Virus record (IMG/VR): IMGVR_UViG_3300023174_000160 | Strand: one strand, 5' to 3' | DNA: 64,000 nt | Source: an uncultured virus (IMG/VR IMGVR_UViG_3300023174_000160) | Taxonomy: Duplodnaviria; Heunggongvirae; Uroviricota; Caudoviricetes | Position numbers and translations under genes: made by a program | Part shown: one piece after another, positions 11,268-19,935 of the stretch | Position numbering within the stretch: the first letter of the stretch is position 1 | How the letters are laid out: every line of letters starts with the position of its first letter | Notes under the pieces: model-generated | The model's database searches: none | What the model was told of the DNA's origin: nothing | The model's input: only the letters and a program-made list of their open reading frames with translations

Positions 11268-12023
11268 TTACCAACCACCGCCACCAACATACCCAACACG
11301 GGGCGCCAGTCTAATAGCTGCCTTCTCGCGGTCTTCGTCTGCAGCGAGTTGAAATTGTTGTTCGTAATCAGATTTAAGCATCTCGATGCGGTTCATAGCA
11401 TCGGGGATTTTCATAGACATGTAGTAAGCCAGCCCAGCAACCATAGCCGGCAAGAACCGGAACGGGATGTCTTGAGTAGTAACGCCGTTGCCTGCGTCCT
11501 GAATCCGGCGCATGCGCCAGTAGATAAACGTGTAGTAGTTATCCAAGTTGGCTGTCGGCCAAATATTAATCTTAGGACTATCTACGCCGGTAATCGGATT
11601 TGTTCCTGCAGGCTGGCCCCCGACCGGATAAGTAGCACCCGACTGGCGGTTAATCCACACCTGAATCGGGCGGCCTTGGGCGTTTTTATTAGGAATCATT
11701 GCGTACGTAGATTCGGAAATACGCGTGATGTTGATGTCGATTTGGTTCTGGCCGGTGCCGTTACGGATAACGTGGTCAAGCAGGTCAATAGTGTCCGCCG
11801 GAATGTCGTAGGCGATGGTGCCTTGAGTTAGCGGAATGCTACCTTGCTCAATAGTCCAGAGGTTGATGCCTCGGTTTGCCCACTCAATAGTCAGCAGATT
11901 CAACGACCTACGTGCAGTACGCATATCATAGCCGGTACGCAGTTCAGCACCGCAACGCTCAAAAGCTTCTTCTACAAGGCTGTTGAGGTCTAGATTAAAT
12001 CCTGTTGTGCCGGAAGTGGTCAT
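11268..12023 (-). CDS. Putative tail/adaptor protein, 251 aa
   Basis: EEAFERCG...ARRSLNL...WANRGINLW, PFRFLPAMVAGLAY. Confidence 0.7.
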   Translation of the reverse strand: MTTSGTTGFNLDLNSLVEEAFERCGAELRTGYDMRTARRSLNLLTIEWANRGINLWTIEQGSIPLTQGTIAYDIPADTIDLLDHVIRNGTGQNQIDINITRISESTYAMIPNKNAQGRPIQVWINRQSGATYPVGGQPAGTNPITGVDSPKINIWPTANLDNYYTFIYWRMRRIQDAGNGVTTQDIPFRFLPAMVAGLAYYMSMKIPDAMNRIEMLKSDYEQQFQLAADEDREKAAIRLAPRVGYVGGGGW

Positions 12024-13447
12024 TTGTTTTTCAACTGCTTCTTGAGTTTAGAGGTCATGCCCTTGTGGACAATAATCGCGCCACCTTTGGCTTTTTTGCT
12101 GGATTTAGAGCCTGTGAAAATAGATGCCGGTGCCGGGGCAGGTGCTGCCGCTGCTGGTTGGAAAATAGACGCCGGAGATGCTCTAGGTGCGGGTGCGGGG
12201 GCGGGTGCCGGGGCGGGTCTAGGGGCAGAAGCTGCTGGTGCAGGTGCCGGGGCGGGTGCTGGTGCCGAAGTTGTTGGTGCTGGAGCTGGGGTTGCCGCAA
12301 CAGGCGCGGAATATACTTTGGCTTTACCCATCTGAGTTTGGGTAGTCTTTTGGTCCGTTTTGATTTGCGCTGCTTGTTTGTTTGCGGTTTCTAGAGCAGC
12401 ATTAGCAGCCTTCATTTGCTCAGGCGTTTTAGCATTTTTTACATCTTTTTTAGCTTGGGCAATATCTTTTGAAGCCGTAGTTGCGCTTGCTTTGTACAAC
12501 GAATCAATTTGGCTCTTGTTAAGGCCCGATAGCTGGTCCGTAGTAAAGTTTTTATATGTGCTGTACTGATACTTTTCCTTGCCAGTAGCGGGGTCAATCT
12601 TTGCGGCGGCGGCCGCGGCGGCGTCAGCGGAAGCTTGCTGTCCTTTTTGTATATCTTCATTAGAAAGCGTCGCATTTCCGGGAACAAATGCTTGGGAGCC
12701 TACGCCTGTAGCCTCTCTACCGGGGTCAAATTTACTAATAACTTCGCCAGTATCTGTAAGTTCAGAATCCGCAGCGGGTTTGGCGCCCGCTTGTTGTTGG
12801 CTAATCAGTTTATCTAGCCGTTCCTGAAGCGCCGCTATTTGGTCAGAACCGTCCGCGGGTTTAGCACCGGCTTGTTGTTGGTTAACTAACTTATCTAGCT
12901 GCGCTTGAAGCGCAGCAAATTGGTCAGAGTTCGCTGTAGATTTGGCCTCAGCTTGCTGCTGCGGCTGTTGTTGATACTGCGGTTGGTACTGCTGTTGGAA
13001 AAACTGAGGTTGGTAGCCATACCCACCGTACGGGTCATATGAACCATAAGGGTTATATCCACTGCCGCCGCCCTTGCCGCCAAAAGGATTTTGGAATGTA
13101 TCTTGGGGTTGGTATTGCGGTTGGAATGTATCTTGCGCTTGGTATTGCGATTGGTCTTGGGTCTGCTGGGTATTGTCCCCGGGCAGGGTAGCGGAGGGGT
13201 CCATGAGGGCTGACAGCCGGTTCATGTTGTACCCAAAAATATTAGGGCCGGTTGGCTGATATTTTTGCGGCGGTTGAAATTTAGTGGTGGACGACTGAGA
13301 TGGTTGTTGAAGCCGGGGCGGGGTGCCCGTACCGCCGCCTTTGCCGCCGTATTGTTGGCCCATAGACTGAGATTGGCCTGTGGTTGTAGGGGATGCACCA
13401 ATACCGGTGTTCCCTTGAGACTGTCCGAATCCTCCGCCCATACCCAT
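12020..13447 (-). CDS. Low-complexity Q/G/Y- and P/A-rich protein, 475 aa
   Basis: Long ORF coupled to both neighbours; internal repeats. Confidence 0.7.
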   Translation of the reverse strand: MGMGGGFGQSQGNTGIGASPTTTGQSQSMGQQYGGKGGGTGTPPRLQQPSQSSTTKFQPPQKYQPTGPNIFGYNMNRLSALMDPSATLPGDNTQQTQDQSQYQAQDTFQPQYQPQDTFQNPFGGKGGGSGYNPYGSYDPYGGYGYQPQFFQQQYQPQYQQQPQQQAEAKSTANSDQFAALQAQLDKLVNQQQAGAKPADGSDQIAALQERLDKLISQQQAGAKPAADSELTDTGEVISKFDPGREATGVGSQAFVPGNATLSNEDIQKGQQASADAAAAAAAKIDPATGKEKYQYSTYKNFTTDQLSGLNKSQIDSLYKASATTASKDIAQAKKDVKNAKTPEQMKAANAALETANKQAAQIKTDQKTTQTQMGKAKVYSAPVAATPAPAPTTSAPAPAPAPAPAASAPRPAPAPAPAPAPRASPASIFQPAAAAPAPAPASIFTGSKSSKKAKGGAIIVHKGMTSKLKKQLKNK

Positions 13448-13448
13448 A

Positions 13449-13856
13449 TTACAAATCCTTTAAAATCATCATGTGGTCTGGTTTATACCCACGATTTTTA
13501 AGTTTGCTTCTGCTCCAGCCAATCCGGCCAGAAAACGTAAGCATATCGCAGCCCTGTGACCTAGCCCAACTAAACACAGACTCTTCCATATTGATTAGTT
13601 CATCAATATTGCCACCCGCTAGAAAAATATGAATCGACTTTCTTTTGGGGTAGTTAATGAGCTGCGAGACTAGCGCTGTTTCTCTGGCCGGCCACAACTG
13701 CAGCTCACCTTTGGAAATCTGGTCCGCCACGTCCTGTAACTCATGCGTCCCGTTACAATATTCCAACGCGTCACTAATATACTTCTCACACTCTTTGAAC
13801 TTCACCGCCCATTCAGGCATGGTTCCGTCCTCGTCCCGATACCGCTCGTAGTCCAT
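13449..13856 (-). CDS. Possible GNAT-fold protein, 135 aa
   Basis: IHIFLAGG...WARSQGCDMLTFSGRIGW pattern. Confidence 0.5.
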   Translation of the reverse strand: MDYERYRDEDGTMPEWAVKFKECEKYISDALEYCNGTHELQDVADQISKGELQLWPARETALVSQLINYPKRKSIHIFLAGGNIDELINMEESVFSWARSQGCDMLTFSGRIGWSRSKLKNRGYKPDHMMILKDL

Positions 13857-14114
13857 TTATTTCCCCGTGTTTCTAAAAGATTTGGTCTTTTTAGAGATAC
13901 TTTTTGGTTGTGCTACGAATTGCTTTCCTGCTCTTTTTCCCGCTCTCTTCGCTCTAGTCGTTGCAGCATATTCTGACGGAGATAACGACTTAATTGCCGC
14001 CTCCGGAAGATATCGCTCTCCGGTTGCTTTGGGGCCTTGCGTTGACGGCTTACCACTTTTAGTTCTCCACTTCTGCTCCGTCCAAGCCTTTAGGCTCTGT
14101 TGGGGCTTCTTCAT
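13857..14114 (-). CDS. Small basic phage protein
   Basis: QQSLKAWTEQKWRTKSGK...ERYLP. Confidence 0.7.
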   Translation of the reverse strand: MKKPQQSLKAWTEQKWRTKSGKPSTQGPKATGERYLPEAAIKSLSPSEYAATTRAKRAGKRAGKQFVAQPKSISKKTKSFRNTGK

Positions 14115-14115
14115 A

Positions 14116-14397
14116 TCAATCCTTATACCCGCCGCCACGCTTTTTGTACTGCAGTGCCAGCATCTGTGCTTTGCGGGCCGACCATTGCCCCGGGGAGCCG
14201 CCTTTACCGCCAGCCTTGATGCTATTAAACAACGACTTGCGCATGCTTGGCTTGGTGTAATTACCGGCTTCGTTGACTTTGCTTAGCCCGCCCTTCTTAT
14301 ACTGAGTTACTTCGTTGGGGTTATCCTTGCGCTGAATGGTCTTAGCCTTCGGCATCTTGGAAGGTTTGATACAACCCATGCCGCGACTAGCTCTCAT
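14116..14397 (-). CDS. Small basic phage protein
   Basis: GNYTKP-MRK...GQWSARKAQMLA. Confidence 0.7.
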   Translation of the reverse strand: MRASRGMGCIKPSKMPKAKTIQRKDNPNEVTQYKKGGLSKVNEAGNYTKPSMRKSLFNSIKAGGKGGSPGQWSARKAQMLALQYKKRGGGYKD

Positions 14398-14804
14398 ACC
14401 ATCCGACCTTTAGTTTTACCGCGTTGTGCGCAACCATCACCGCGCTTGGATGCAGAGCTAACTGAACCGCCTTTTTTCATACCGTGGACTTTATCGCGAC
14501 GGTTAACTGCTCTTTCCATTAAACGTAACGCTTCAACATCTCCTGCACCCAAACGCTTAGCCATAGTTTTTGAGTCCGGGTCAGAAGCGCCTTTGTTTTT
14601 CTCGTAAAGGCTACGCATACCTTCAACATCAGAATTAAAAGCTTTCTGTGCGCCTCGGGCAGTATTCATTCCTTTGGTATACGCCTCTGGATAATCTGCG
14701 TACGAGTACCCGGCAAACGGGTCTTCTTTTTTCTTTCCCTTCTTACTAACCGTAGGCGGTCCAGTCAAATCTCCCAAACCTTCAGCACCAAAATCTTTAG
14801 CCAT
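14394..14804 (-). CDS. Basic protein with MKKGG motif
   Basis: Ends MKKGGSVSSASKRGDGCAQRGKTKGRMV. Confidence 0.7.
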   Translation of the reverse strand: MAKDFGAEGLGDLTGPPTVSKKGKKKEDPFAGYSYADYPEAYTKGMNTARGAQKAFNSDVEGMRSLYEKNKGASDPDSKTMAKRLGAGDVEALRLMERAVNRRDKVHGMKKGGSVSSASKRGDGCAQRGKTKGRMV

Positions 14805-14813
14805 GATTACGCC

Positions 14814-15479
14814 TTAAATGATTTTGCCCTTGGTCTTACCTTTTTTGGTAACACCGTCAGCAGCGCGGACATAACCGCCACCGGCCATGCACTTCACTCG
14901 GCCGCCCTTCTTCATGTTCATCGAACCCAAATCCTTAGCAGTCGGCAGTTCCTTCTTAACGCCACCAGCCTTCATGCCACAGACCTTGCCACCTTTTTTC
15001 ATAGCGGGAGCGGGAGCAAATTGGCTCATGTCAACGCCCTTAGGAGTACGGGTGCGGTCCATTGGCGCCATAGTTTCACCCGCAGAAGCGGCTTTTTTAG
15101 CGGCGTCGGCTTTTTGAGTAGCGGCTTTAAAGGCGGCGGCCTTGTCTGTGGCGGGTTTAGCTGCAGGGGCAGCGGCCTTACGGGCACCCATACCAAACAT
15201 TCCCATGCCGGGTTTAGCGCCGCCTTTTTTCATGCCGGCTTCAGCCTTCTCGTGCTTAACCATCGACTTCGGGGCGCCCTTAGCCTTCATAAAATCTACT
15301 TCCTTCTTAACCATCTTCTTGGATTCAGCCATTTCACCACCTCGTTTAAATTGTTTGCCTTTATCGGCTTTGTTAAATTCTTTCCCAACACTTTGCGGGA
15401 TACCGACCTTCTTGGCAAACTTCGGGTTATGAGCCACCGCTGCCATAAGGTTATGTTGCTTTTTACTTACGCTAGGCAT
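14814..15479 (-). CDS. Basic protein with multiple MKKGG motifs
   Basis: MPSVSKKQHNLMAAVAHNP start; six phi-x-x-GG motifs. Confidence 0.75.
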   Translation of the reverse strand: MPSVSKKQHNLMAAVAHNPKFAKKVGIPQSVGKEFNKADKGKQFKRGGEMAESKKMVKKEVDFMKAKGAPKSMVKHEKAEAGMKKGGAKPGMGMFGMGARKAAAPAAKPATDKAAAFKAATQKADAAKKAASAGETMAPMDRTRTPKGVDMSQFAPAPAMKKGGKVCGMKAGGVKKELPTAKDLGSMNMKKGGRVKCMAGGGYVRAADGVTKKGKTKGKII

Positions 15480-15483
15480 AATT

Positions 15484-15744
15484 TCAACACTTCCAAGCTT
15501 TTAAGGACAGAGCTTTTCTAGTCGGCTTGCCTTTTTCGTCCTTCATCGCCCCCGGCATACCGGACATACGAGCACAGAACGATTTACGGCGAGCTGCGTC
15601 CTTCTTTGTTTTAGGGTTAGGCGCCGGCGGTTTCAAACCCGGCTTGCCCGGATTAGCAGCGTTATAAGAGGCACGGCCCTTGGCGTTCAAACCACCTTTA
15701 GGGTTCTTACCTTCCTTACGAGTCCACGCCGGAGTCTTAGCCAT
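15484..15744 (-). CDS. Small basic protein (DUF6321-like)
   Basis: AWTRKEGKNPKGGLNAKGRAS...RRKSFCARM...WKC. Confidence 0.7.
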   Translation of the reverse strand: MAKTPAWTRKEGKNPKGGLNAKGRASYNAANPGKPGLKPPAPNPKTKKDAARRKSFCARMSGMPGAMKDEKGKPTRKALSLKAWKC

Positions 15745-16526
15745 TACGCCACCAGATATCCATTTTGAATCAAGATACCGCCCGCATACATGCTGCAAGT
15801 AAACGGACTACCAGTATTTGACTTCACACAAAACTGAATGTCGGTTTTTTCCAAATGCGGAATGGGTACAGTAAACGGAATCTCTTGCTTTTGCACAAAA
15901 GTTGTTTGGTTAAGCAACGTAATAAGGCCGTTTCTATCTCCGCTATTAGTCTTGTTGTACTCCTGAGCAGTCATGTAGTTGCTAGAAGTAAACCCGATAC
16001 TTGCGTCATACTGAACATACGACAGATAGAACGTATAGCCTGCCGGCACCGTATAAATAGACATCTGGGTCTGGCCGACGCCCGCGTTAATCTTTGCGTA
16101 AGTCGAAGCGCCAATCTTTGCCGTGATGTTTCCGGTGTTGGTGCTGTTGAGCATAGACATCTGATTGATACGCAGGAACGAATTGGTCGTGGTGACGTTC
16201 GTTACCCCATTCAGCGCAATCGTTTCAACAAGCGGTACGAAGTTAGCGTCCAGCCCTTCAATCACAACCGAACGGGTCGAATTGTCAGAAGCTGAATCAC
16301 TAACCAACACTAGCGGAGCAGCAGAAGCTGGCGGGGTATACAACCCGCCGGAAAGAGTTTGTCCTTCCCACATCGGCCCCTGAGCCGTGCTACCAATAGC
16401 AGTGCTGTATCCGAAGATTTCTAGGCCGGTGTGGCCGACAACCTGCCCACGAGCCACCTGCAATTCAAATGGCTCAAACGACCCCATGCGCGTGACCGAC
16501 GACGGGACACCCATCAAGTTAGCCAT
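15744..16526 (-). CDS. Putative virion structural protein, 260 aa
   Basis: PFELQVARG, GQTQMSIYTVPAG; beta-rich. Confidence 0.7.
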   Translation of the reverse strand: MANLMGVPSSVTRMGSFEPFELQVARGQVVGHTGLEIFGYSTAIGSTAQGPMWEGQTLSGGLYTPPASAAPLVLVSDSASDNSTRSVVIEGLDANFVPLVETIALNGVTNVTTTNSFLRINQMSMLNSTNTGNITAKIGASTYAKINAGVGQTQMSIYTVPAGYTFYLSYVQYDASIGFTSSNYMTAQEYNKTNSGDRNGLITLLNQTTFVQKQEIPFTVPIPHLEKTDIQFCVKSNTGSPFTCSMYAGGILIQNGYLVA

Positions 16527-16538
16527 AATGGCCCCCGA

Positions 16539-17000
16539 TTAGACGTTCTGTTGGCCGACCAGCGGGTCTTGGACGAAGTACGTAATGTAGCCGCCGACAG
16601 TACCCGAACCCAGAGTATCGATAGTCACGGTAACATACGACAACGCCGAAACAGGCGTGCCAGTAACTGCCGAGCCAATGCTGGTGGTGCCGACAGAAGC
16701 CACGCTAAGATTGTTAGCAATAGCTGTGCCAGTAACGGCGCCAGTCGTATAATTACGCGTGCCGAGGTCGATAGAGCCAGAGCCAGCATCATTGATGCTA
16801 ACCGACAGAACAACAGCACCAGCCGGCAGAATCAGCGCCGGAGCACCAGCAGCCGAAGAAACAGTAACGTTGGTAGCCGTAGCAACCGAAGCGTCAGCGA
16901 TATAGAATTGAGCAGCCATAACGCCCGAGCCACAATAAGCAGTGCGGGTTTGGTCGCCGCCGCCCGAGCGCCAAATAGATTGAGTAGTAGACAGAGCCAT
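16539..17000 (-). CDS. Putative capsid decoration/spike protein
   Basis: RBS GAGGA before MALST; ILPAGAVV motif. Confidence 0.65.
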   Translation of the reverse strand: MALSTTQSIWRSGGGDQTRTAYCGSGVMAAQFYIADASVATATNVTVSSAAGAPALILPAGAVVLSVSINDAGSGSIDLGTRNYTTGAVTGTAIANNLSVASVGTTSIGSAVTGTPVSALSYVTVTIDTLGSGTVGGYITYFVQDPLVGQQNV

Positions 17001-17013
17001 AATATTCCTCGTG

Positions 17014-17082
17014 TTGTAGCACATCGCCGCACCGTCTCTACAAAGTCTGCTAGGTCAGTCGGTGGGGCTAAAATTCCTAGGT
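17014..17082 (-). ncRNA. Structured leader RNA with three interleaved helices (Mu-gpT-DE-like)
   Basis: CUAGG/CCUAG, GCCCCACCG/CGGUGCGGC and UUGUAG/CUACAA in double-pseudoknot order, between a promoter and an RBS. Confidence 0.6.
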
Positions 17083-17088
17083 CTTCGT

Positions 17089-17117
17089 GTTATACTACGA
17101 TGGCTTTTATCCGTCAA
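17089..17117 (-). promoter_or_regulatory. Sigma70-type promoter
   Basis: TTGACG-N17-TATAAC. Confidence 0.65.
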
Positions 17118-17132
17118 CATCAAAGGAACGTC

Positions 17133-17504
17133 ATGTTAGGAATGCGTAATAGACACGCGCCGCACATAGATTTTAGTGAACTTGCAGGGGCTATAGAGGA
17201 AAAACCTAGTTTTATACCTTCTAATATCGATATGGTTTACGAAAGAAACGGGTCGTTTCTTTTTGCGGAGTGGAAGCGGGAAGGTGAAACGTTTAGTACA
17301 GGGCAGAAAATTCTACTGTTTGCACTAAGCAAACTTCCCGGGGTCTTTGTTTTAATAATTACCGGCGACACTGACGACGGTATGAGAGTCACAAACATTC
17401 AAAAAATTACAAAAAACGGCTCACTAAAGCCCGTAGGGTCTTCTGTAGAAGACTTAAAAAATTTAGTTCGTAAATGGTACGACTTCGTAGATAGCAAACA
17501 ATAA
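17133..17504 (+). CDS. PD-(D/E)XK-like nuclease, antisense to the structural operon
   Basis: RBS AAGGA; PSNIDM...FLFAEWK...STGQK. Confidence 0.65.
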   Translation: MLGMRNRHAPHIDFSELAGAIEEKPSFIPSNIDMVYERNGSFLFAEWKREGETFSTGQKILLFALSKLPGVFVLIITGDTDDGMRVTNIQKITKNGSLKPVGSSVEDLKNLVRKWYDFVDSKQ

Positions 17505-17524
17505 AAAGGCCCCGAAGGGCCTTT
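17503..17524. terminator. Terminator between convergent genes
   Basis: AAAGGCCC-CGAA-GGGCCTTT; UUCG loop and U-tract on the minus strand. Confidence 0.8.
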
Positions 17525-17526
17525 GC

Positions 17527-17673
17527 TTACTTCTTCCAGAACGACATCCAGTCCGGCTTGGCTTGCATCTTGGTTTCGGCGTTTTTCCACGCATCCATAG
17601 CATAGCCAAATTGCGTAGCAACGATATCGCGGCAAGCGGCCGACCACTGGGCAAAAACAGTTTGGTAATCCAT
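17527..17673 (-). CDS. 48-aa amphipathic protein (not in ORF track)
   Basis: GGAGG RBS; MDYQTVFAQWSAACRDIVATQFGYAMDAWKNAETKMQAKPDWMSFWKK; terminator follows. Confidence 0.7.
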   Translation of the reverse strand: MDYQTVFAQWSAACRDIVATQFGYAMDAWKNAETKMQAKPDWMSFWKK

Positions 17674-17712
17674 AAGAACCTCCGTTGAGTTAAAAAATGC
17701 TGCAGTGCAATA

Positions 17713-18276
17713 TTAATCGTGTTTGTTGGACTTGGCAAGGTTTTCTTCTTGCGTAATAACACGCAGGTTCCAAGGCACGTGTAGGCCGCAAACGCCGTCG
17801 TTTATAAGGGGCACGATGTGGTCAACCACATACCGCTCTCCAGTAAGTTTGGTCAGGCTCTGGGCCTGTAGATAAAGCTGCCGCATCTGGAGTTTCTGTT
17901 CTTTAGTAATCCACGGCGGCGTAGCTGCGCGATGCCGACGTTTCCGCACGCTTGTAAGAGCTTTGTATAGTTCTGGGTGTTCTTGTTTGTATTTGGCTTT
18001 GTGTCCTTGTTTTTCTTCTTTAGGCCTTGCCATAGCCCTAGCTTTTACAAGCTCCTTGTTTTTTTCGTAATATCTTTTTCCCGCGGCCCTTGAAGCCTCT
18101 GATTTAGGTTTCTCTTTGCGTTTCTCGTTATCAACGGCCCAATCTTCTTTTATGCACTCAACGCACGCGCCCTTAGTTTTGCGTAACGCGATGTGTCCTC
18201 TGGTACAGGGCTTGCCTGTGAAGTAGTGGGTTGCTCCAGTTGCTTTGGCTTCCGCCCGCGTGTTTGGGTAGTTCAT
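17713..18276 (-). CDS. HNH endonuclease
   Basis: YFTGKPCTRGH...CVEC, VDHIVPL...GLHVPWNL...EN; AGGAG RBS. Confidence 0.85.
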   Translation of the reverse strand: MNYPNTRAEAKATGATHYFTGKPCTRGHIALRKTKGACVECIKEDWAVDNEKRKEKPKSEASRAAGKRYYEKNKELVKARAMARPKEEKQGHKAKYKQEHPELYKALTSVRKRRHRAATPPWITKEQKLQMRQLYLQAQSLTKLTGERYVVDHIVPLINDGVCGLHVPWNLRVITQEENLAKSNKHD

Positions 18277-18304
18277 ATCGGCTCCTGTGAATACGACACG
18301 GGGA

Positions 18305-18333
18305 ATTATATACCAATAAAAAACCCCGCGCAA
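18305..18333 (-). promoter_or_regulatory. Sigma70-type promoter for the HNH gene
   Basis: TTGCGC-N17-TATAAT overlapping the capsid terminator. Confidence 0.6.
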
Positions 18334-18342
18334 GGCGGGGTT
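18318..18342 (-). terminator. Intrinsic terminator after the capsid gene
   Basis: AACCCCGC-CTTGC-GCGGGGTTTTTT. Confidence 0.8.
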
Positions 18343-18373
18343 CCAATCAACGTAAGTTGTTGATTTATAAGGC

Positions 18374-19282
18374 TTAGGCGCCCGGCGAACCGAACATGCC
18401 CAGCGGGTCAGACCAGCCAAAGCTGTAGCGCTCACGGGCCTTGTAGCGAACGTTCCCTGTATCGAAGTCCCCGTCCATTGACGTAGCCAGCGGGGTACGA
18501 ACGAAATGCTTCATACCATTCGGCACATCCGTGGTCAGGAACCAAGCGTTGGTGTCGGTCAGGAAGTGGTTAACGGTATAGCCTTCCGGAATCGAACCAT
18601 TGTTCATGATGGCGTTGATGTCGTTGTCGTTGGTACCAACACGCAGTTGGGTTTCCAGCAAACGGGTAGCGACGAACATCAGTGCCGGCGGAACAATCAG
18701 CTTACGCGGCTTAGCGGCAATCAGCAGACCACGTTCGTCAGTCCACGCAGCGATTTGAATCACGGCGTTTTCCAGCGAGGTTTCGTTCAGGTCAGCGGCG
18801 ACGGCCGGGGTGTTGCTGTTGGTGCCACCAGAGACAAGCGGGTGCGCGGTGTTGAACAGTTGGACGCCATCACCACCCGGGTAGGTAGCCGAGAAGCCGT
18901 TGTTCAGAACGTTAGCAGCCTTAACTTGCTTGGTGTAAGCCATAGCACGAGCCAGAGCCTTGGTATAACGAGCCGACAGGGTGTCGTACAGGTTATCTTC
19001 CACTGCTTCTTCAGTCAGCGAGAAGCCAAGAGCGATGGTTTCGTGGTTGTATCGGGCGGTCCAAGCTTCTTGCGCGTTGTCGTATGCGATTGCAGCGCCT
19101 TCGTTCTTGACCGGAGCAGCCGAGAAACCGGACAGCTTGGTTTCTTCTTCAAAGCTACGTTCCGAGGTTTCGGTTTCGTAGATTTCTTTATGCTCTTCAC
19201 CGTATTTGTTGTACTCCAAACCAAACAGCGCGTTCAGGCCGGGCAGGAGTTCTTTGAGTAGCTGGGCACGAGAAATTGCCAT
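18374..19282 (-). CDS. Major capsid protein (Mu gpT-like family)
   Basis: MAISRAQLLKELLPGLNALFG...YKARERYSFGWSDP; position after scaffold; AGGAG RBS. Confidence 0.9.
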   Translation of the reverse strand: MAISRAQLLKELLPGLNALFGLEYNKYGEEHKEIYETETSERSFEEETKLSGFSAAPVKNEGAAIAYDNAQEAWTARYNHETIALGFSLTEEAVEDNLYDTLSARYTKALARAMAYTKQVKAANVLNNGFSATYPGGDGVQLFNTAHPLVSGGTNSNTPAVAADLNETSLENAVIQIAAWTDERGLLIAAKPRKLIVPPALMFVATRLLETQLRVGTNDNDINAIMNNGSIPEGYTVNHFLTDTNAWFLTTDVPNGMKHFVRTPLATSMDGDFDTGNVRYKARERYSFGWSDPLGMFGSPGA

Positions 19283-19293
19283 GATTTATCTCC

Positions 19294-19935
19294 TTAGATG
19301 CCGGTGGCGTTGTTATACGAGTGATAACCGGCGTTGAACTTGACGACCAACTCCGTGAAGTTACCAGACGAGTTGGCGGTGTCCGGCACAACGTCAATGA
19401 CGCGCATCGGGGTGCTAGCAGTACCAGCGCCGCCCGGGGTGTACACACCAATCTTCGAGTTACCAGTGGTGGTCGAGCCGGTGTTTTGCACAACGGTGAC
19501 GTTGCTACCGATAACGGTCAGACCCAGATAAGCCGGGGTGAGCGCGTTAGCGCTATCTTCAACGTCGCCAGCAACCAGAACAACCTTGTACAGAGCGTTC
19601 GGGTCATCAGAAACGTAAGCGGTAGCGTCGGTAACGCCCGACAGGCCCGGCCAATATTGCGAGAACAGCTTTTGCTTGGTCGAGGGGTTGGTGTACGAAC
19701 AGCCGAGGAAAACGCCAACCAGACCGGCGACCGGGCTAGCTTCGTCTTGGATGTTCGACTTTGCCACAGTACCGCTGGAGGTAAGCGTAACGATGTCACC
19801 GTTGAAAATGTTGGTGCCGTACGAAACCGAAGTGGTAGTGATGGCGAATTGACGAGTTGCACCAGCGAACGGCAGGCCACCAACGAGGTTGATAGGCTTT
19901 AGGCCGTACGGGGCAGAAACAGTCGGGTATGCCAT
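19294..19935 (-). CDS. Putative minor capsid/cement protein
   Basis: APYGLKP...IFNGD...GVFLGC...DDP; lies just upstream of the capsid gene. Confidence 0.7.
   Translation of the reverse strand: MAYPTVSAPYGLKPINLVGGLPFAGATRQFAITTTSVSYGTNIFNGDIVTLTSSGTVAKSNIQDEASPVAGLVGVFLGCSYTNPSTKQKLFSQYWPGLSGVTDATAYVSDDPNALYKVVLVAGDVEDSANALTPAYLGLTVIGSNVTVVQNTGSTTTGNSKIGVYTPGGAGTASTPMRVIDVVPDTANSSGNFTELVVKFNAGYHSYNNATGI

What the first reader, a model, noticed from the sequence alone, without database searches (positions are those of the whole stretch)
17006..17117. Compact double-pseudoknot leader RNA with its own promoter, downstream of the capsid gene
Seen on the minus strand: TTGACG-N17-TATAAC, then P1 (17076-80 with 17050-54), P2 (17060-68 with 17026-34, one mismatch) and P3 (17038-43 with 17014-19). 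The order P1a-P2a-P1b-P3a-P2b-P3b forces two pseudoknots, and P3 ends 3 nt before the GAGGA RBS. From memory, the Mu-gpT-DE motif of unknown function occurs downstream of gpT-like capsid genes, which fits this location. Inference: a riboswitch-like, ribozyme-like or protein-binding switch that sets the ratio of decoration protein to capsid. It stayed with the downstream gene despite ~1.2 kb of intervening genes, which points to a 5' cis role.
Basis: partly seen in the sequence, partly recalled or inferred. Interest (0 to 1): 0.75.

Follow-up and report, generated by a model that had tools for sequence, protein, structure and literature searches.

The report
Double-pseudoknot leader RNA of phage cement gene
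The RNA just ahead of this phage's capsid-cement gene folds into a knotted four-helix shape that is kept across hundreds of lake and ocean phages, so it is a real and so far uncatalogued regulatory RNA, most likely one that controls how much cement protein is made.

Summary
All three helices and both promoter hexamers sit at the stated coordinates.

The single sequence proves nothing (fold z -0.57), but comparison does:
- 94 distinct homologous leaders keep the pairs through many two-sided changes: 95.2% of cells paired against 17-44% with slid partners, and 21 of 23 pairs changed on both sides.
- A fourth helix, Px, encloses the 3' strand of P1.
- A model of the motif hits once per source, always ending at the start codon of the gene after the capsid gene.
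- The same architecture occurs in cultured Pelagibacter phage HTVC023P.

It is not a member of Rfam Mu-gpT-DE (RF03012): no hit in the window and 14 bits or less in relatives, against a 49-bit cut-off. A true Mu-gpT-DE in Roseobacter phage CRP-902 holds the same position and shares the element order and junction residues, so the two look like relatives.

The most likely function is cis control of translation initiation, because the Shine-Dalgarno always abuts the last helix, with 5'-end protection as a possible second role. Riboswitch and ribozyme readings are untested and less likely.

The parts
17112..17117 (-). -35-like hexamer TTGACG
   Evidence: Read. A -35/-10 pair scoring 10 of 12 with a 17-nt spacer was found by script. 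The scan tool did not call it. This segment lies inside the insertion relative to L001 and L002.
17089..17094 (-). -10-like hexamer TATAAC. It ends 8 nt before P1a, so the predicted transcript start is near 17082 (inferred).
   Evidence: Among relatives, 127 of 129 parsed leaders have a pair scoring 8 of 12 or better, and in 125 of them the -10 ends 6-12 nt before P1a.
17001..17082 (-). The whole leader RNA, from the predicted 5' end to the base before the AUG.
   Evidence: Model R1 hits window 16998-17093 (-) at 57.3 bits, E 4.4e-14. It is the only hit in the 64-kb window.
17076..17080 (-). P1 5' strand, CUAGG
   Evidence: Covaries as CCGGG/CCCGG, CCGGA/UCCGG, CUGGG/CCCAG, CCAGG/CCUGG, CGGGGG/CCCCCG, CCUAG/CUAGG and ACUAUAC/GUAUAGU.
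17050..17054 (-). P1 3' strand, CCUAG, lying in the loop of Px
17060..17068 (-). P2 5' strand, GCCCCACCG
   Evidence: All 9 P2 pairs change on both sides in A2.
17026..17034 (-). P2 3' strand, CGGUGCGGC (C.C mismatch at 17029 with 17065)
17059..17059 (-). Junction A between P2a and Px
   Evidence: Invariant column A34 in the MAFFT alignment A1.
17056..17058 (-). Px 5' strand, CUG (the new fourth helix)
   Evidence: 100% of cells paired. Seen as CUG/CAG, CAG/CUG, UUG/CAA, CAGGC/GCCUG, UAGGC/GCCUA and UGGC/GCCA.
17047..17049 (-). Px 3' strand, CAG
17044..17046 (-). Junction ACU after Px (the A is invariant; the second base is C or U)
   Evidence: A47 is invariant in A1. AC occurs in 112 and AU in 17 of 129 parsed leaders; the parse grammar itself imposes A[CU].
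17038..17043 (-). P3 5' strand, UUGUAG
   Evidence: 6 of 6 pairs in 94 of 94 leaders. 13 distinct P3 helices.
17035..17037 (-). Junction AGA between P3a and P2b (the last A is invariant)
   Evidence: A58 is invariant in A1. AGA 80, CGA 31, CAA 17, UUA 1 of 129.
17014..17019 (-). P3 3' strand, CUACAA
17006..17010 (-). Shine-Dalgarno GAGGA, 3 nt after P3b
   Evidence: Among relatives, an SD-like tetramer starts at -4 to 0 relative to the end of P3b in 120 of 129 leaders.
16539..17000 (-). The regulated gene: a 153-aa putative capsid cement or decoration protein (AUG 17000-16998).
   Evidence: No Pfam or PHROG family. The AF2 model is all-beta with pLDDT 59. Best fold matches are weak: Pam1 capsid chain 7eel_H (E 5e-3), and the KHP30, KHP40 and GP4 cement chains. 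The positional counterpart in DSL-LC04 is annotated 'cement protein'.
17068..17072 (-). Segment B, UUUAG: possible alternative partner of P1a in a 5' hairpin (weak)
   Evidence: 85.9% paired, but the covariation score of 0.208 barely exceeds the slid control of 0.189. The hairpin is absent in L089, L142 and the marine clades.
18374..19282 (-). Context: the Mu-gpT-like major capsid gene upstream
   Evidence: Pfam Phage_capsid_4 at 6.9e-15 and Mu-like_gpT at 1.1e-9.
18320..18344 (-). Context: intrinsic terminator after the capsid gene

Best explanation
Window 17082-17001 (minus strand) is a genuine cis-acting 5' leader of the mRNA for the gene that follows the capsid gene, a putative cement protein.

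Structure (shown by comparison):
- It folds into four helices. P2 encloses a small hairpin, Px, and the 5' strand of P3.
- The loop of Px pairs with the extreme 5' end of the transcript (P1).
- The 3' strand of P3 comes back from downstream of P2.
- The result is two interlocked pseudoknots around a junction with conserved A, A-C/U and N-R-A residues.

Transcription (inferred):
- It is made from its own sigma-70-like promoter, so P1 begins within a few bases of the 5' end.

Relationship (shown for the shared core):
- It is a larger relative of the Mu-gpT-DE motif.

Function (inferred):
- It most likely controls translation initiation. The Shine-Dalgarno always lies at or inside the 3' edge of P3.
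- The folded knot would set 30S access, either constitutively or as an operator for a trans-acting factor that recognises the conserved junction.
- The buried 5' end may also protect the mRNA from 5'-end-dependent decay.
For: The structure is real:
- A2, 94 distinct leaders: 95.2% of cells paired against 17-44% with slid partners; 21 of 23 pairs changed on both sides; covariation score 0.617 against 0.129 or less; 0 of 500 shuffles reach it. A1 gives the same picture.
- A strict script grammar for the full architecture fits 82 of 95, 11 of 55 and 36 of 39 unique leaders upstream of three divergent protein groups. It fits 6 of 945 shuffles and 0 of 189 reversed leaders. The parsed leaders give 73 distinct helix sets.
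- U-G pairs are tolerated on this strand (36 of 94 at one P2 pair). That points to RNA rather than a DNA feature.

It acts in cis on this gene:
- Model R1 gives exactly one hit in each of 94 of 95 sources, all ending at the start codon, and none elsewhere in 485 kb.
- There is one copy per genome in 5 near-complete genomes.
- It stays with the gene whether the capsid stop is 116-160 nt away (83 loci) or 202-1149 nt away (19 loci). It also stays with it in this window, despite two insertions.

Link to the ribosome-binding site:
- The 3' end of P3b lies 8-16 nt before the AUG in 129 of 129 parsed leaders. An SD-like tetramer starts at -4 to 0 from the P3b end in 120 of 129.
- In the UCAUGC/GCAUGA class, P3 extends 2 bp into the SD. 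In the second pelagiphage leader type (helices ACUAUAC/GUAUAGU and GCCUAG/CUAGG), P3b CUAGG overlaps AGGAGG.
- In the sister Mu-gpT-DE type, P2b CAGG overlaps the SD. The conserved UAGCCA is complementary to UGGCUA at the start codon: 87 of 96 cells against 41 or fewer when slid, with GCC:GGC changed to CCC:GGG.

Promoter and 5' end:
- 127 of 129 leaders have a -35/-10 pair scoring 8 of 12 or better; in 125 the -10 ends 6-12 nt before P1a.
- RNA-library contigs from lake water runs of four studies cover the gene. In three of them the contigs stop inside the leader at 17061-17068 with no loose ends. This is a weak hint only.

Precedents:
- The E. coli alpha-operon leader is a double pseudoknot through which S4 represses translation (PMC3616713, passages read).
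- P22 scaffolding protein shows translational autoregulation (bioRxiv 10.1101/2022.12.13.520362, one passage read).
Against: - No experiment or probing data exist. The function is inferred from anatomy alone.
- In the window's own type the SD and AUG are not themselves paired (3-nt spacer CAC), so occlusion may be slight. The knot could equally enhance or insulate translation.
- No conserved anti-SD or alternative SD-sequestering pairing was seen (by eye).
- The cement protein has no lysine and few arginines. That makes it a poor candidate for binding RNA, and no other factor is identified.
- Homologous genes carry very different leaders: Mu-gpT-DE; a shorter form that keeps P1, P2 and Px but has no P3b (L231/L252 type); and minimal hairpin forms. 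The exact fold is therefore dispensable.
- The window's -10 lacks the consensus T at position 6, and the scan tool does not call the promoter.
- The nested fold energy is not better than shuffles.
- The RNA-library contigs cannot prove transcription or a 5' end.
Confidence: 0.5

Rival explanations
1. It is mainly a 5'-terminal mRNA stabiliser. P1 stacks on Px and buries the triphosphate end, which would block RppH and RNase E entry and prolong the life of the late structural mRNA. Translation would not be regulated.
For: - The predicted transcript start lies 0-5 nt before P1a in 125 of 129 leaders.
- Every leader type starts with a helix close to the promoter.
- The RNA contigs stop near the leader's 5' part.
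- That 5'-terminal stem-loops stabilise bacterial mRNAs is established knowledge (recalled; no paper read here).
Against: - A simple hairpin would be enough. Conserving four helices and the junction residues is not needed for end protection.
- It does not explain why P3b always abuts the SD.
- It does not explain why the Mu-gpT-DE type pairs with the SD and the start codon.
Confidence: 0.2
2. It is a strict member of Rfam family Mu-gpT-DE (RF03012).
For: - It holds the same genomic position: between a gpT-like capsid gene and the next gene's AUG.
- It shares the blocks CUGAC.CUAGC and, in some classes, GGAGAU.AACAUG.
- It has the same element order under the relaxed grammar.
Against: - RF03012 gives no hit at E <= 10 in window 16960-17140 or 16400-19400.
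- It gives none at gathering score in 15 related loci.
- The best score in 5 related genomes is 14.1 bits, against a 49-bit cut-off.
- Conversely, model R1 does not hit CRP-902.
- The lengths (53 against about 82 nt), the number of helices and the placement of P2b and P3b all differ.
Confidence: 0.05
3. It is a small pseudoknot riboswitch. A metabolite or ion would stabilise the knot and change access to the adjacent SD, tying cement synthesis to the state of the host.
For: - The SD sits at the 3' edge of a pseudoknot, as in known SD-sequestering pseudoknot riboswitches (recalled).
- The junction residues A, AC and NRA are conserved.
- There is a possible alternative 5' hairpin.
Against: - Only about six unpaired positions are conserved.
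- Homologous genes use quite different leaders, which argues against a fixed ligand pocket.
- No Rfam riboswitch model matches.
- The alternative hairpin is weakly supported.
- A late structural gene has no obvious metabolite logic.
Confidence: 0.07
4. It is a self-cleaving ribozyme that cuts read-through transcripts at the 5' edge of P1, releasing a separate cement mRNA.
For: - The fold is a double pseudoknot with P1 at the extreme 5' end, which superficially recalls HDV-like ribozymes.
- It lies just after a terminator that may be read through.
Against: - The strand order does not match the HDV-like, twister, pistol or hatchet architectures (compared by hand from recalled consensus structures).
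- No Rfam ribozyme model matches.
- Few nucleotides are conserved.
- A conserved promoter already provides the 5' end.
Confidence: 0.03
5. The helices are chance complementarity, or they reflect a DNA-level or coding constraint.
For: - The single-sequence fold energy is no better than shuffles.
- An in-frame AUG at 17024 extends the ORF on paper.
Against: - Massive two-sided covariation.
- The grammar passes 0.6% of shuffles.
- U-G pairs are specific to this strand.
- By eye, the upstream AUG does not recur in the other leader classes printed.
Confidence: 0.01

Closest known systems
Mu-gpT-DE RNA motif (Rfam RF03012; 53 positions; listed by Rfam as 'Gene; sRNA')
   Same: - Same position: immediately after a Mu-gpT-like capsid gene and ending at the AUG of the next gene, which encodes about 150 aa (CRP-902, 72.3 bits).
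- Same order of elements: P2a, A, Px hairpin, AC, P3a, [A/C]GA, P2b. Seventeen unique Mu-gpT-DE-type leaders fit the relaxed grammar, against 5 of 945 shuffles.
- Shared CUGAC.CUAGC block.
- The downstream proteins align over their full length at 19-28% identity.
   Different: - The RF03012 model does not detect the window leader or its relatives, and R1 does not detect CRP-902.
- Mu-gpT-DE is shorter, and no P1 could be established for it (not tested formally).
- Its P2 is only 4 bp and its 3' strand is part of the SD.
- Its P3 partner appears to be the start codon region.
- In the window type, P2b and P3b are separate strands upstream of a free SD, and a 5' P1 is added.
E. coli alpha-operon (rpsM) leader, the S4 translational operator
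   Same: A complex double pseudoknot in a 5' UTR next to the ribosome-binding site, which controls translation initiation (PMC3616713, passages read).
   Different: - The S4 operator contains the start codon and part of the coding region, and it is bound by a known RNA-binding protein.
- Here the AUG is outside the fold and no binding protein is known.
- There is no sequence or model similarity (no Rfam hit).
Phage T4 gene 32 leader pseudoknot
   Same: A phage 5'-leader pseudoknot upstream of the RBS, used for autogenous translational control (as summarised in PMC10690425, passage read).
   Different: - gp32 is a single-strand nucleic-acid binding protein. The cement protein shows no such character.
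- The T4 element is a single H-type pseudoknot with no Rfam model, so no comparison could be computed.
Candidate structured RNAs (csRNAs) of IMG/VR viruses (Fremin et al. 2023, PMC10690425)
   Same: That study mined the same collection for covarying intergenic RNAs. It includes RNAs within 25 nt upstream of genes and pseudoknotted gp32 leaders (passages read).
   Different: I could not establish whether this motif is among them. The alignment archives could not be searched, and the main text discusses only csRNAs upstream of genes with known domains.

Membership tests
Rfam RF03012 Mu-gpT-DE | Covariance-model score at or above the gathering score of 49 bits | tested here: not met
   - No hit at E <= 10 in window 16400-19400 or 16960-17140.
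- 0 of 15 related loci at gathering score.
- Best 14.1 bits in 5 related genomes; 12.3 bits on the RBS part of L019 only.
- Positive controls: CRP-902 scores 72.3 bits, and 8 of 20 other loci pass.
Rfam RF03012 Mu-gpT-DE | Lies directly downstream of a Mu-gpT-like capsid gene | tested here: met
   - The capsid gene matches Pfam Mu-like_gpT and Phage_capsid_4.
- In 83 of 102 related loci, the capsid stop to cement AUG distance is 116-160 nt.
- In the window itself the distance is 1373 nt because of two insertions.
Rfam RF03012 Mu-gpT-DE | Consensus of two nested stems (CCUG/CAGG around CAGcc/ggCUG), then ACAcUAGCCAcGA, ending AGAUuaACAUG | tested here: not met
   The consensus was seen. The window has a 9-bp P2, a 3-bp Px, and P3a UUGUAG in place of UAGCCA. 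Only CUGAC.CUAGC and the junction residues correspond.
Proposed wider family (window type plus Mu-gpT-DE type) | Element order P2a-A-Px-A[CU]-N1-2-P3a-NNA-P2b...P3b, next to or overlapping the RBS | tested here: met
   Relaxed grammar: 89 of 95, 26 of 55 and 17 of 39 unique leaders in the three protein sets, including 17 of the Mu-gpT-DE type, against 5 of 945 shuffles. This is my own script, not a curated family.
Known self-cleaving ribozyme classes (HDV-like, twister, twister-sister, pistol, hatchet, hammerhead) | Match to the class covariance model, and the strand order of the class | tested here: not met
   No Rfam hit at gathering score or at E <= 10. The strand order was compared by hand with recalled consensus structures and does not fit. 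Cleavage itself cannot be tested here.
Known riboswitch classes | Match to a class model; a conserved ligand pocket | tested here: not met
   No Rfam hit. A new class cannot be excluded with these tools.
Sigma-70-type promoter | -35 and -10 hexamers with a 16-18 nt spacer, and A at position 2 and T at position 6 of the -10 | tested here: inconclusive
   - The window has TTGACG-N17-TATAAC (10 of 12), but C at position 6, so the tool does not call it.
- Relatives have TATATT, TATAAA or TATAAT at the same distance in 125 of 129.
- The start site has not been mapped.
Protein-bound translational operator (S4, S15 or gp32 type) | Specific binding of a repressor protein that blocks or traps the 30S subunit | not testable with these tools
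   No RNA-protein prediction is available, and no candidate binder has been identified.

The most novel reading that the evidence does not exclude
The window leader, the two pelagiphage leader types and the orphan Mu-gpT-DE motif form one superfamily of RNA operators or switches. A still unknown trans-acting factor would recognise their conserved A / AC / NGA three-helix junction. That factor could be a phage or host protein, unassembled capsid material, or a small molecule. In this way the most abundant aquatic podophages would couple cement-protein synthesis to capsid assembly. In the window type, competition between the 5' hairpin and P1 would make the fold bistable.
Probability: 0.2. Interest if true: 0.8.

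Novelty: new variant of a known kind. Interest (0 to 1): 0.62.

Why it matters
- It adds a strongly supported four-helix, double-pseudoknot RNA to the short list of complex cis-regulatory folds in phages.
- It is widespread. Each protein query finds about 450-470 IMG/VR relatives in the window's group. The fold also occurs in a cultured Pelagibacter phage.
- It gives the orphan Mu-gpT-DE motif a concrete reading. That motif would be a 5' leader that pairs with its own Shine-Dalgarno and start codon, not a 'downstream element' or small RNA.
- It offers a natural series of related leaders, from RBS-sequestering to RBS-adjacent, on which to test how phages tune the dose of a capsid accessory protein.

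Tried and rejected
Database and membership checks
- Rfam membership of any family: no hit.
- Hand mapping onto the HDV-like, twister, pistol and hatchet strand orders (recalled consensus structures): no fit.

Energy and alignment
- Single-sequence thermodynamics: z = -0.57, uninformative for a pseudoknot.
- Both MAFFT and the P1+P3 model alignment misalign P2b and P3b in the window's own small class. I therefore parsed helices by geometry in scripts. The tool counts are conservative for that class.

Negative or weak comparisons
- Pag-Yong1-type 'minor capsid' loci (27 loci): the protein is unrelated by BLASTP. Only a terminator hairpin lies upstream, and R1 finds nothing there.
- Alternative 5' hairpin (P1a with segment B): 85.9% paired, but covariation of 0.208 barely exceeds the slid control of 0.189, and it is absent from several classes. 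I keep it as a weak idea only.
- Search by eye for a conserved anti-SD or for pairing of the window-type leader with AUGGCU: none found.

Promoter, protein and expression
- The promoter scan tool does not call the window promoter.
- Protein family scans of the downstream gene: nothing in Pfam or PHROGs, and one sub-threshold NCBIfam match (18.9 bits against a 242-bit cut-off). No significant PDB sequence match (E 0.82). The structure model has low confidence.
- RNA runs: there is no cover between 17069 and 18367. This cannot be interpreted, because relatives lack those insertions and contigs show neither absence nor ends.

Prior work
- Earlier findings of this scan: none.
- Literature searches for 'cement protein + phage + pseudoknot', 'pelagiphage + pseudoknot' and a six-term capsid/RNA-motif query: nothing relevant.
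- The supplement of Weinberg 2017 was unreadable. The alignment archives of Fremin 2023 could not be searched. The supplement of Rivas 2020 does not mention the motif.
Full report
**What is in the window.** Everything below reads on the minus strand.
- P1 is CUAGG 17080-17076 with CCUAG 17054-17050.
- P2 is GCCCCACCG 17068-17060 with CGGUGCGGC 17034-17026, with one C.C mismatch.
- P3 is UUGUAG 17043-17038 with CUACAA 17019-17014.
- Then come CAC, the Shine-Dalgarno GAGGA (17010-17006), and AUG at 17000.
- The gene that follows (17000-16539) encodes 153 aa.
- Upstream lie a Mu-gpT-like/Phage_capsid_4 capsid gene (19282-18374), its terminator (18344-18320) and an HNH endonuclease ORF (PHROG endonuclease VII).
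- Further down are a bidirectional terminator (17524-17505) and a 123-aa ORF on the opposite strand (17133-17504) with no known family.
- Compared with the closest relatives L001 and L002, the HNH gene and the opposite-strand ORF are insertions. Homology resumes at the -10 hexamer or at P1.

**Is it more than chance?**
- On this sequence alone, no. The nested fold is no better than shuffles (z = -0.57), as expected for a pseudoknot.
- The comparative evidence decides it. Protein-guided searches of IMG/VR found 454-470 relatives of the downstream protein.
- Of the 211 loci then held, 164 had at least 100 nt upstream of an intact start. These gave 92 distinct leaders.
- On a plain MAFFT alignment of 52 of them, the four-helix structure has 93.8% of cells paired against 22-43% with slid partners. 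Twenty of 23 pairs change on both sides, and 0 of 500 shuffles reach the covariation score.
- A covariance model built on P1+P3 hit 94 of 95 sources exactly once. Each hit ended at the start codon, and there was nothing else in 485 kb. The window hit is 16998-17093, 57.3 bits.
- On that 94-row alignment, 95.2% of cells pair against 17-44%, and 21 of 23 pairs change on both sides.
- U-G pairs, which would be A.C on the other strand, occur 36 times at one P2 pair. The constraint therefore acts on RNA of this strand.
- Five near-complete genomes each carry a single copy. One genome shows it twice, at its terminally repeated contig ends.

**Refined anatomy.**
- A geometric parse found a fourth helix, Px (CUG 17058-17056 with CAG 17049-17047). 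It closes a loop whose bases form the 3' strand of P1.
- Px covaries: CUG/CAG, CAG/CUG, UUG/CAA, CAGGC/GCCUG, UAGGC/GCCUA and UGGC/GCCA. It is 100% paired.
- P2 thus encloses Px and P3a. The Px loop pairs with the extreme 5' end, and P3b returns from beyond P2b.
- The unpaired positions that stay constant are an A between P2a and Px, A-C/U after Px, and N-R-A before P2b (invariant columns; counts).
- A one-base link from Px to P1b and a zero-base link from P1b to Px' fit a loop helix stacked on the 3' strand of its stem, as in fully paired kissing loops. This is inference from recalled structural knowledge.
- A possible alternative 5' hairpin (P1a with the bases just before P2a) is only weakly supported.

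**Breadth.**
- The model also hits cultured Pelagibacter phage HTVC023P just upstream of gp41 (39.7 bits). There P1 is CCUAG/CUAGG, P2 is AUUUUGUAG/CUACAAAAU and P3 is GUAUAG/CUAUAC.
- A strict script grammar for the whole architecture fits 82 of 95, 11 of 55 and 36 of 39 unique leaders upstream of three protein groups: the window type, the CRP-902 gp56 type and the HTVC023P gp41 type.
- The same grammar fits 6 of 945 shuffles and 0 of 189 reversed leaders. The parsed leaders give 73 distinct helix sets and 13 different P3 helices.
- The 13 window-type failures visibly have the same layout. They fail on P2 bulges or a first-pair mismatch.
- The three protein groups align end to end at 19-28% identity.
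- The structure model is of low confidence (pLDDT 59). Its best fold matches are weak but consistent: Pam1 capsid chain 7eel_H (E 5e-3, TM 0.46-0.49), and cement chains of phages KHP30, KHP40 and GP4. The counterpart in metagenome-assembled phage DSL-LC04 is annotated 'cement protein' (PMC10611076, listing only).
- Loci with the unrelated Pag-Yong1-type minor capsid protein have only a terminator hairpin upstream.

**Position, promoter and RNA evidence.**
- In 83 of the 102 loci where a capsid end was found, the capsid stop lies 116-160 nt before the cement AUG. In 19 it lies 202-1149 nt away because of insertions. The leader always stays with the cement gene.
- It is therefore a 5' leader, not a 3' element of the capsid gene.
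- A -35/-10 pair scoring 8 of 12 or better is present in 127 of 129 parsed leaders. In 125 of them the -10 ends 6-12 nt before P1a. P1 should then begin 0-5 nt from the transcript start (inferred).
- In many relatives the -35 lies in the loop of the capsid terminator (read by eye).
- The window's own -10 (TATAAC) lacks the consensus T, and the scan tool does not call it.
- Contigs from lake-water RNA libraries of four studies cover the cement gene. They end inside the leader at 17064, 17068, 17061 and 17034, with no loose ends. This is a weak hint only, since contigs cannot prove a start and DNA carry-over is possible.

**Relation to Mu-gpT-DE.**
- The family id RF03012 was confirmed from a passage in PMC7657543. 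That the motif is found downstream of gpT genes, and that its cis or trans nature is unresolved, is recalled. The 2017 paper's main text does not mention it and its supplement could not be read.
- By the family's own model, the window leader is not a member.
- A true member (72.3 bits) lies in Roseobacter phage CRP-902. It spans exactly the 53 nt that end at the AUG of gp56, the gene after the gpT capsid gene. Eight of 20 further loci also carry it.
- Its consensus can be read with the same grammar: P2a CCUG, A, Px, AC-NN, P3a UAGCCA, [A/C]GA, P2b CAGG. Seventeen unique leaders fit, against 5 of 945 shuffles.
- In that type P2b is part of the SD (CAGGAG).
- The conserved UAGCCA is complementary to UGGCUA of AUGGCUA: 87 of 96 cells pair, against 41 or fewer when slid. 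Compensatory GCC:GGC to CCC:GGG changes occur in three leaders, and L241 shows CUUG/CAAG with ACCCA/UGGGU.
- The two types therefore look like variants of one ancestral leader. One has its 3' strands inside the RBS. The other, the window's type, has dedicated 3' strands just upstream of a free RBS plus an added 5' helix.
- Genes of the CRP-902 gp56 group carry still other leaders: a shorter form that keeps P1, P2 and Px but has no P3b (L231/L252 type), and minimal 'A-hairpin-AC' forms (read by eye).

**How it most likely works.**
- Shown: the fold, its cis position, and its fixed juxtaposition to the RBS. P3b ends 8-16 nt before the AUG in 129 of 129 leaders, and an SD-like tetramer starts at -4 to 0 from the P3b end in 120 of 129.
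- Inferred: the knot governs 30S access. It may act as a constitutive tuner or insulator, or as an operator for a factor that reads the conserved junction.
- Precedents are the S4 alpha-operon double pseudoknot (PMC3616713, passages) and assembly-linked translational autoregulation of the P22 scaffolding protein (bioRxiv 10.1101/2022.12.13.520362, one passage).
- The 5'-terminal P1 may also shield the mRNA end.
- Against direct autoregulation by the cement protein: it has no lysine and few arginines.
- Against a riboswitch: few unpaired positions are conserved, and leader types turn over freely among homologous genes.
- Against a ribozyme: no known class fits, and a promoter already supplies the 5' end.

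**Novelty and limits.**
- No Rfam family matches.
- My literature searches found nothing on such a leader.
- Fremin et al. 2023 mined IMG/VR for more than ten thousand candidate structured RNAs, and their alignment files could not be searched here. The motif may therefore already sit unnamed in that catalogue.
- I rate it a new variant of a known kind: a larger, double-pseudoknotted relative of Mu-gpT-DE. The structure is near certain, and the mechanism is about even odds.

Noticed in passing
L213:2277-2335 (Roseobacter phage CRP-902) and L218, L223, L239, L250, L255, L265, L268, L285, L241: In true Mu-gpT-DE (RF03012) leaders, the conserved UAGCCA segment is complementary to UGGCUA of the start region AUGGCUA. 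Pairing is 87 of 96 cells against 41 or fewer when slid, with GCC:GGC to CCC:GGG compensation. The outer stem's CAGG is also part of the SD. The motif thus looks like an RBS-sequestering pseudoknot leader, not a 'downstream element' or small RNA.
   Followed up: partly
window 17709-18368 (HNH ORF 17713-18435, minus strand): An HNH (endonuclease VII-like) gene is inserted between the capsid gene and the leader, compared with L002. Among related loci, 19 of 102 have 202-1149 nt of extra DNA at this same intergenic site, which suggests a hotspot for homing endonucleases.
   Followed up: partly
window 17094-17500 (+ strand ORF 17133-17504): A roughly 406-bp low-GC cassette (about 40-42%) carries a 123-aa ORF on the opposite strand, with no Pfam, PHROG, NCBIfam or PDB match. 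It is inserted between the terminator and the leader, compared with L001 and L002. It replaced the ancestral -35 region, so the window's TTGACG hexamer comes with the insert. Its own promoter would overlap the leader DNA.
   Followed up: partly
window 17500-17709: A stretch of about 210 nt between the HNH stop and the bidirectional terminator is conserved in L001 and L002 (94%). It holds only a 48-aa ORF (17673-17527) with no family. Its function is unknown.
   Followed up: no
L225, L230, L231, L242, L246, L252, L253 (upstream of CRP-902 gp56-like genes): A shorter leader type keeps P1, P2, Px and the GCCAAGA/ACCCAAGA segment but has no P3b. A pyrimidine run (UUUUCCUUU) sits directly before the SD AGGAGGG instead. 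The partner of the P3a-like segment was not found.
   Followed up: no
L221, L224, L227, L245, L256, L257, L262, L276, L293, L295: Minimal leaders consist of 'A - short hairpin with a UUCG or GNRA loop - AC' a few tens of nt before the SD. They may be reduced versions of the Px core.
   Followed up: no
L090:3404-3510 (Planktothrix phage Pag-Yong1): The capsid-to-minor-capsid spacer contains two GC-rich hairpins. The loop of the second (ACCGUCUCC) is complementary to the SD region GGAGACGG, so it may be an unrelated SD-sequestering pseudoknot. Seen by eye only.
   Followed up: no
window 17068-17080: The 5' strand of P1 can also pair with the bases just before P2a (CUAGG-AAU-UUUAG; CCGGG-GUU-CCCGG in relatives). 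That would give a competing 5' hairpin. Covariation support is weak, and the hairpin is missing in DSL-LC04, L142 and the marine clades.
   Followed up: yes
window 12020-15800 (minus strand): Downstream of the cement gene lie several low-complexity, Lys/Ala/Gly- or Gln/Pro-rich proteins, including a DUF6321 protein (15484-15798) and a 475-aa Q/P/A-rich protein (12020-13447). They may be internal virion or ejection proteins. Not examined.
   Followed up: no
L229:2202-2278: One extra weak R1 match (20.2 bits, E 0.003) lies downstream of the cement-like gene in one locus. It is probably spurious and was not examined.
   Followed up: no
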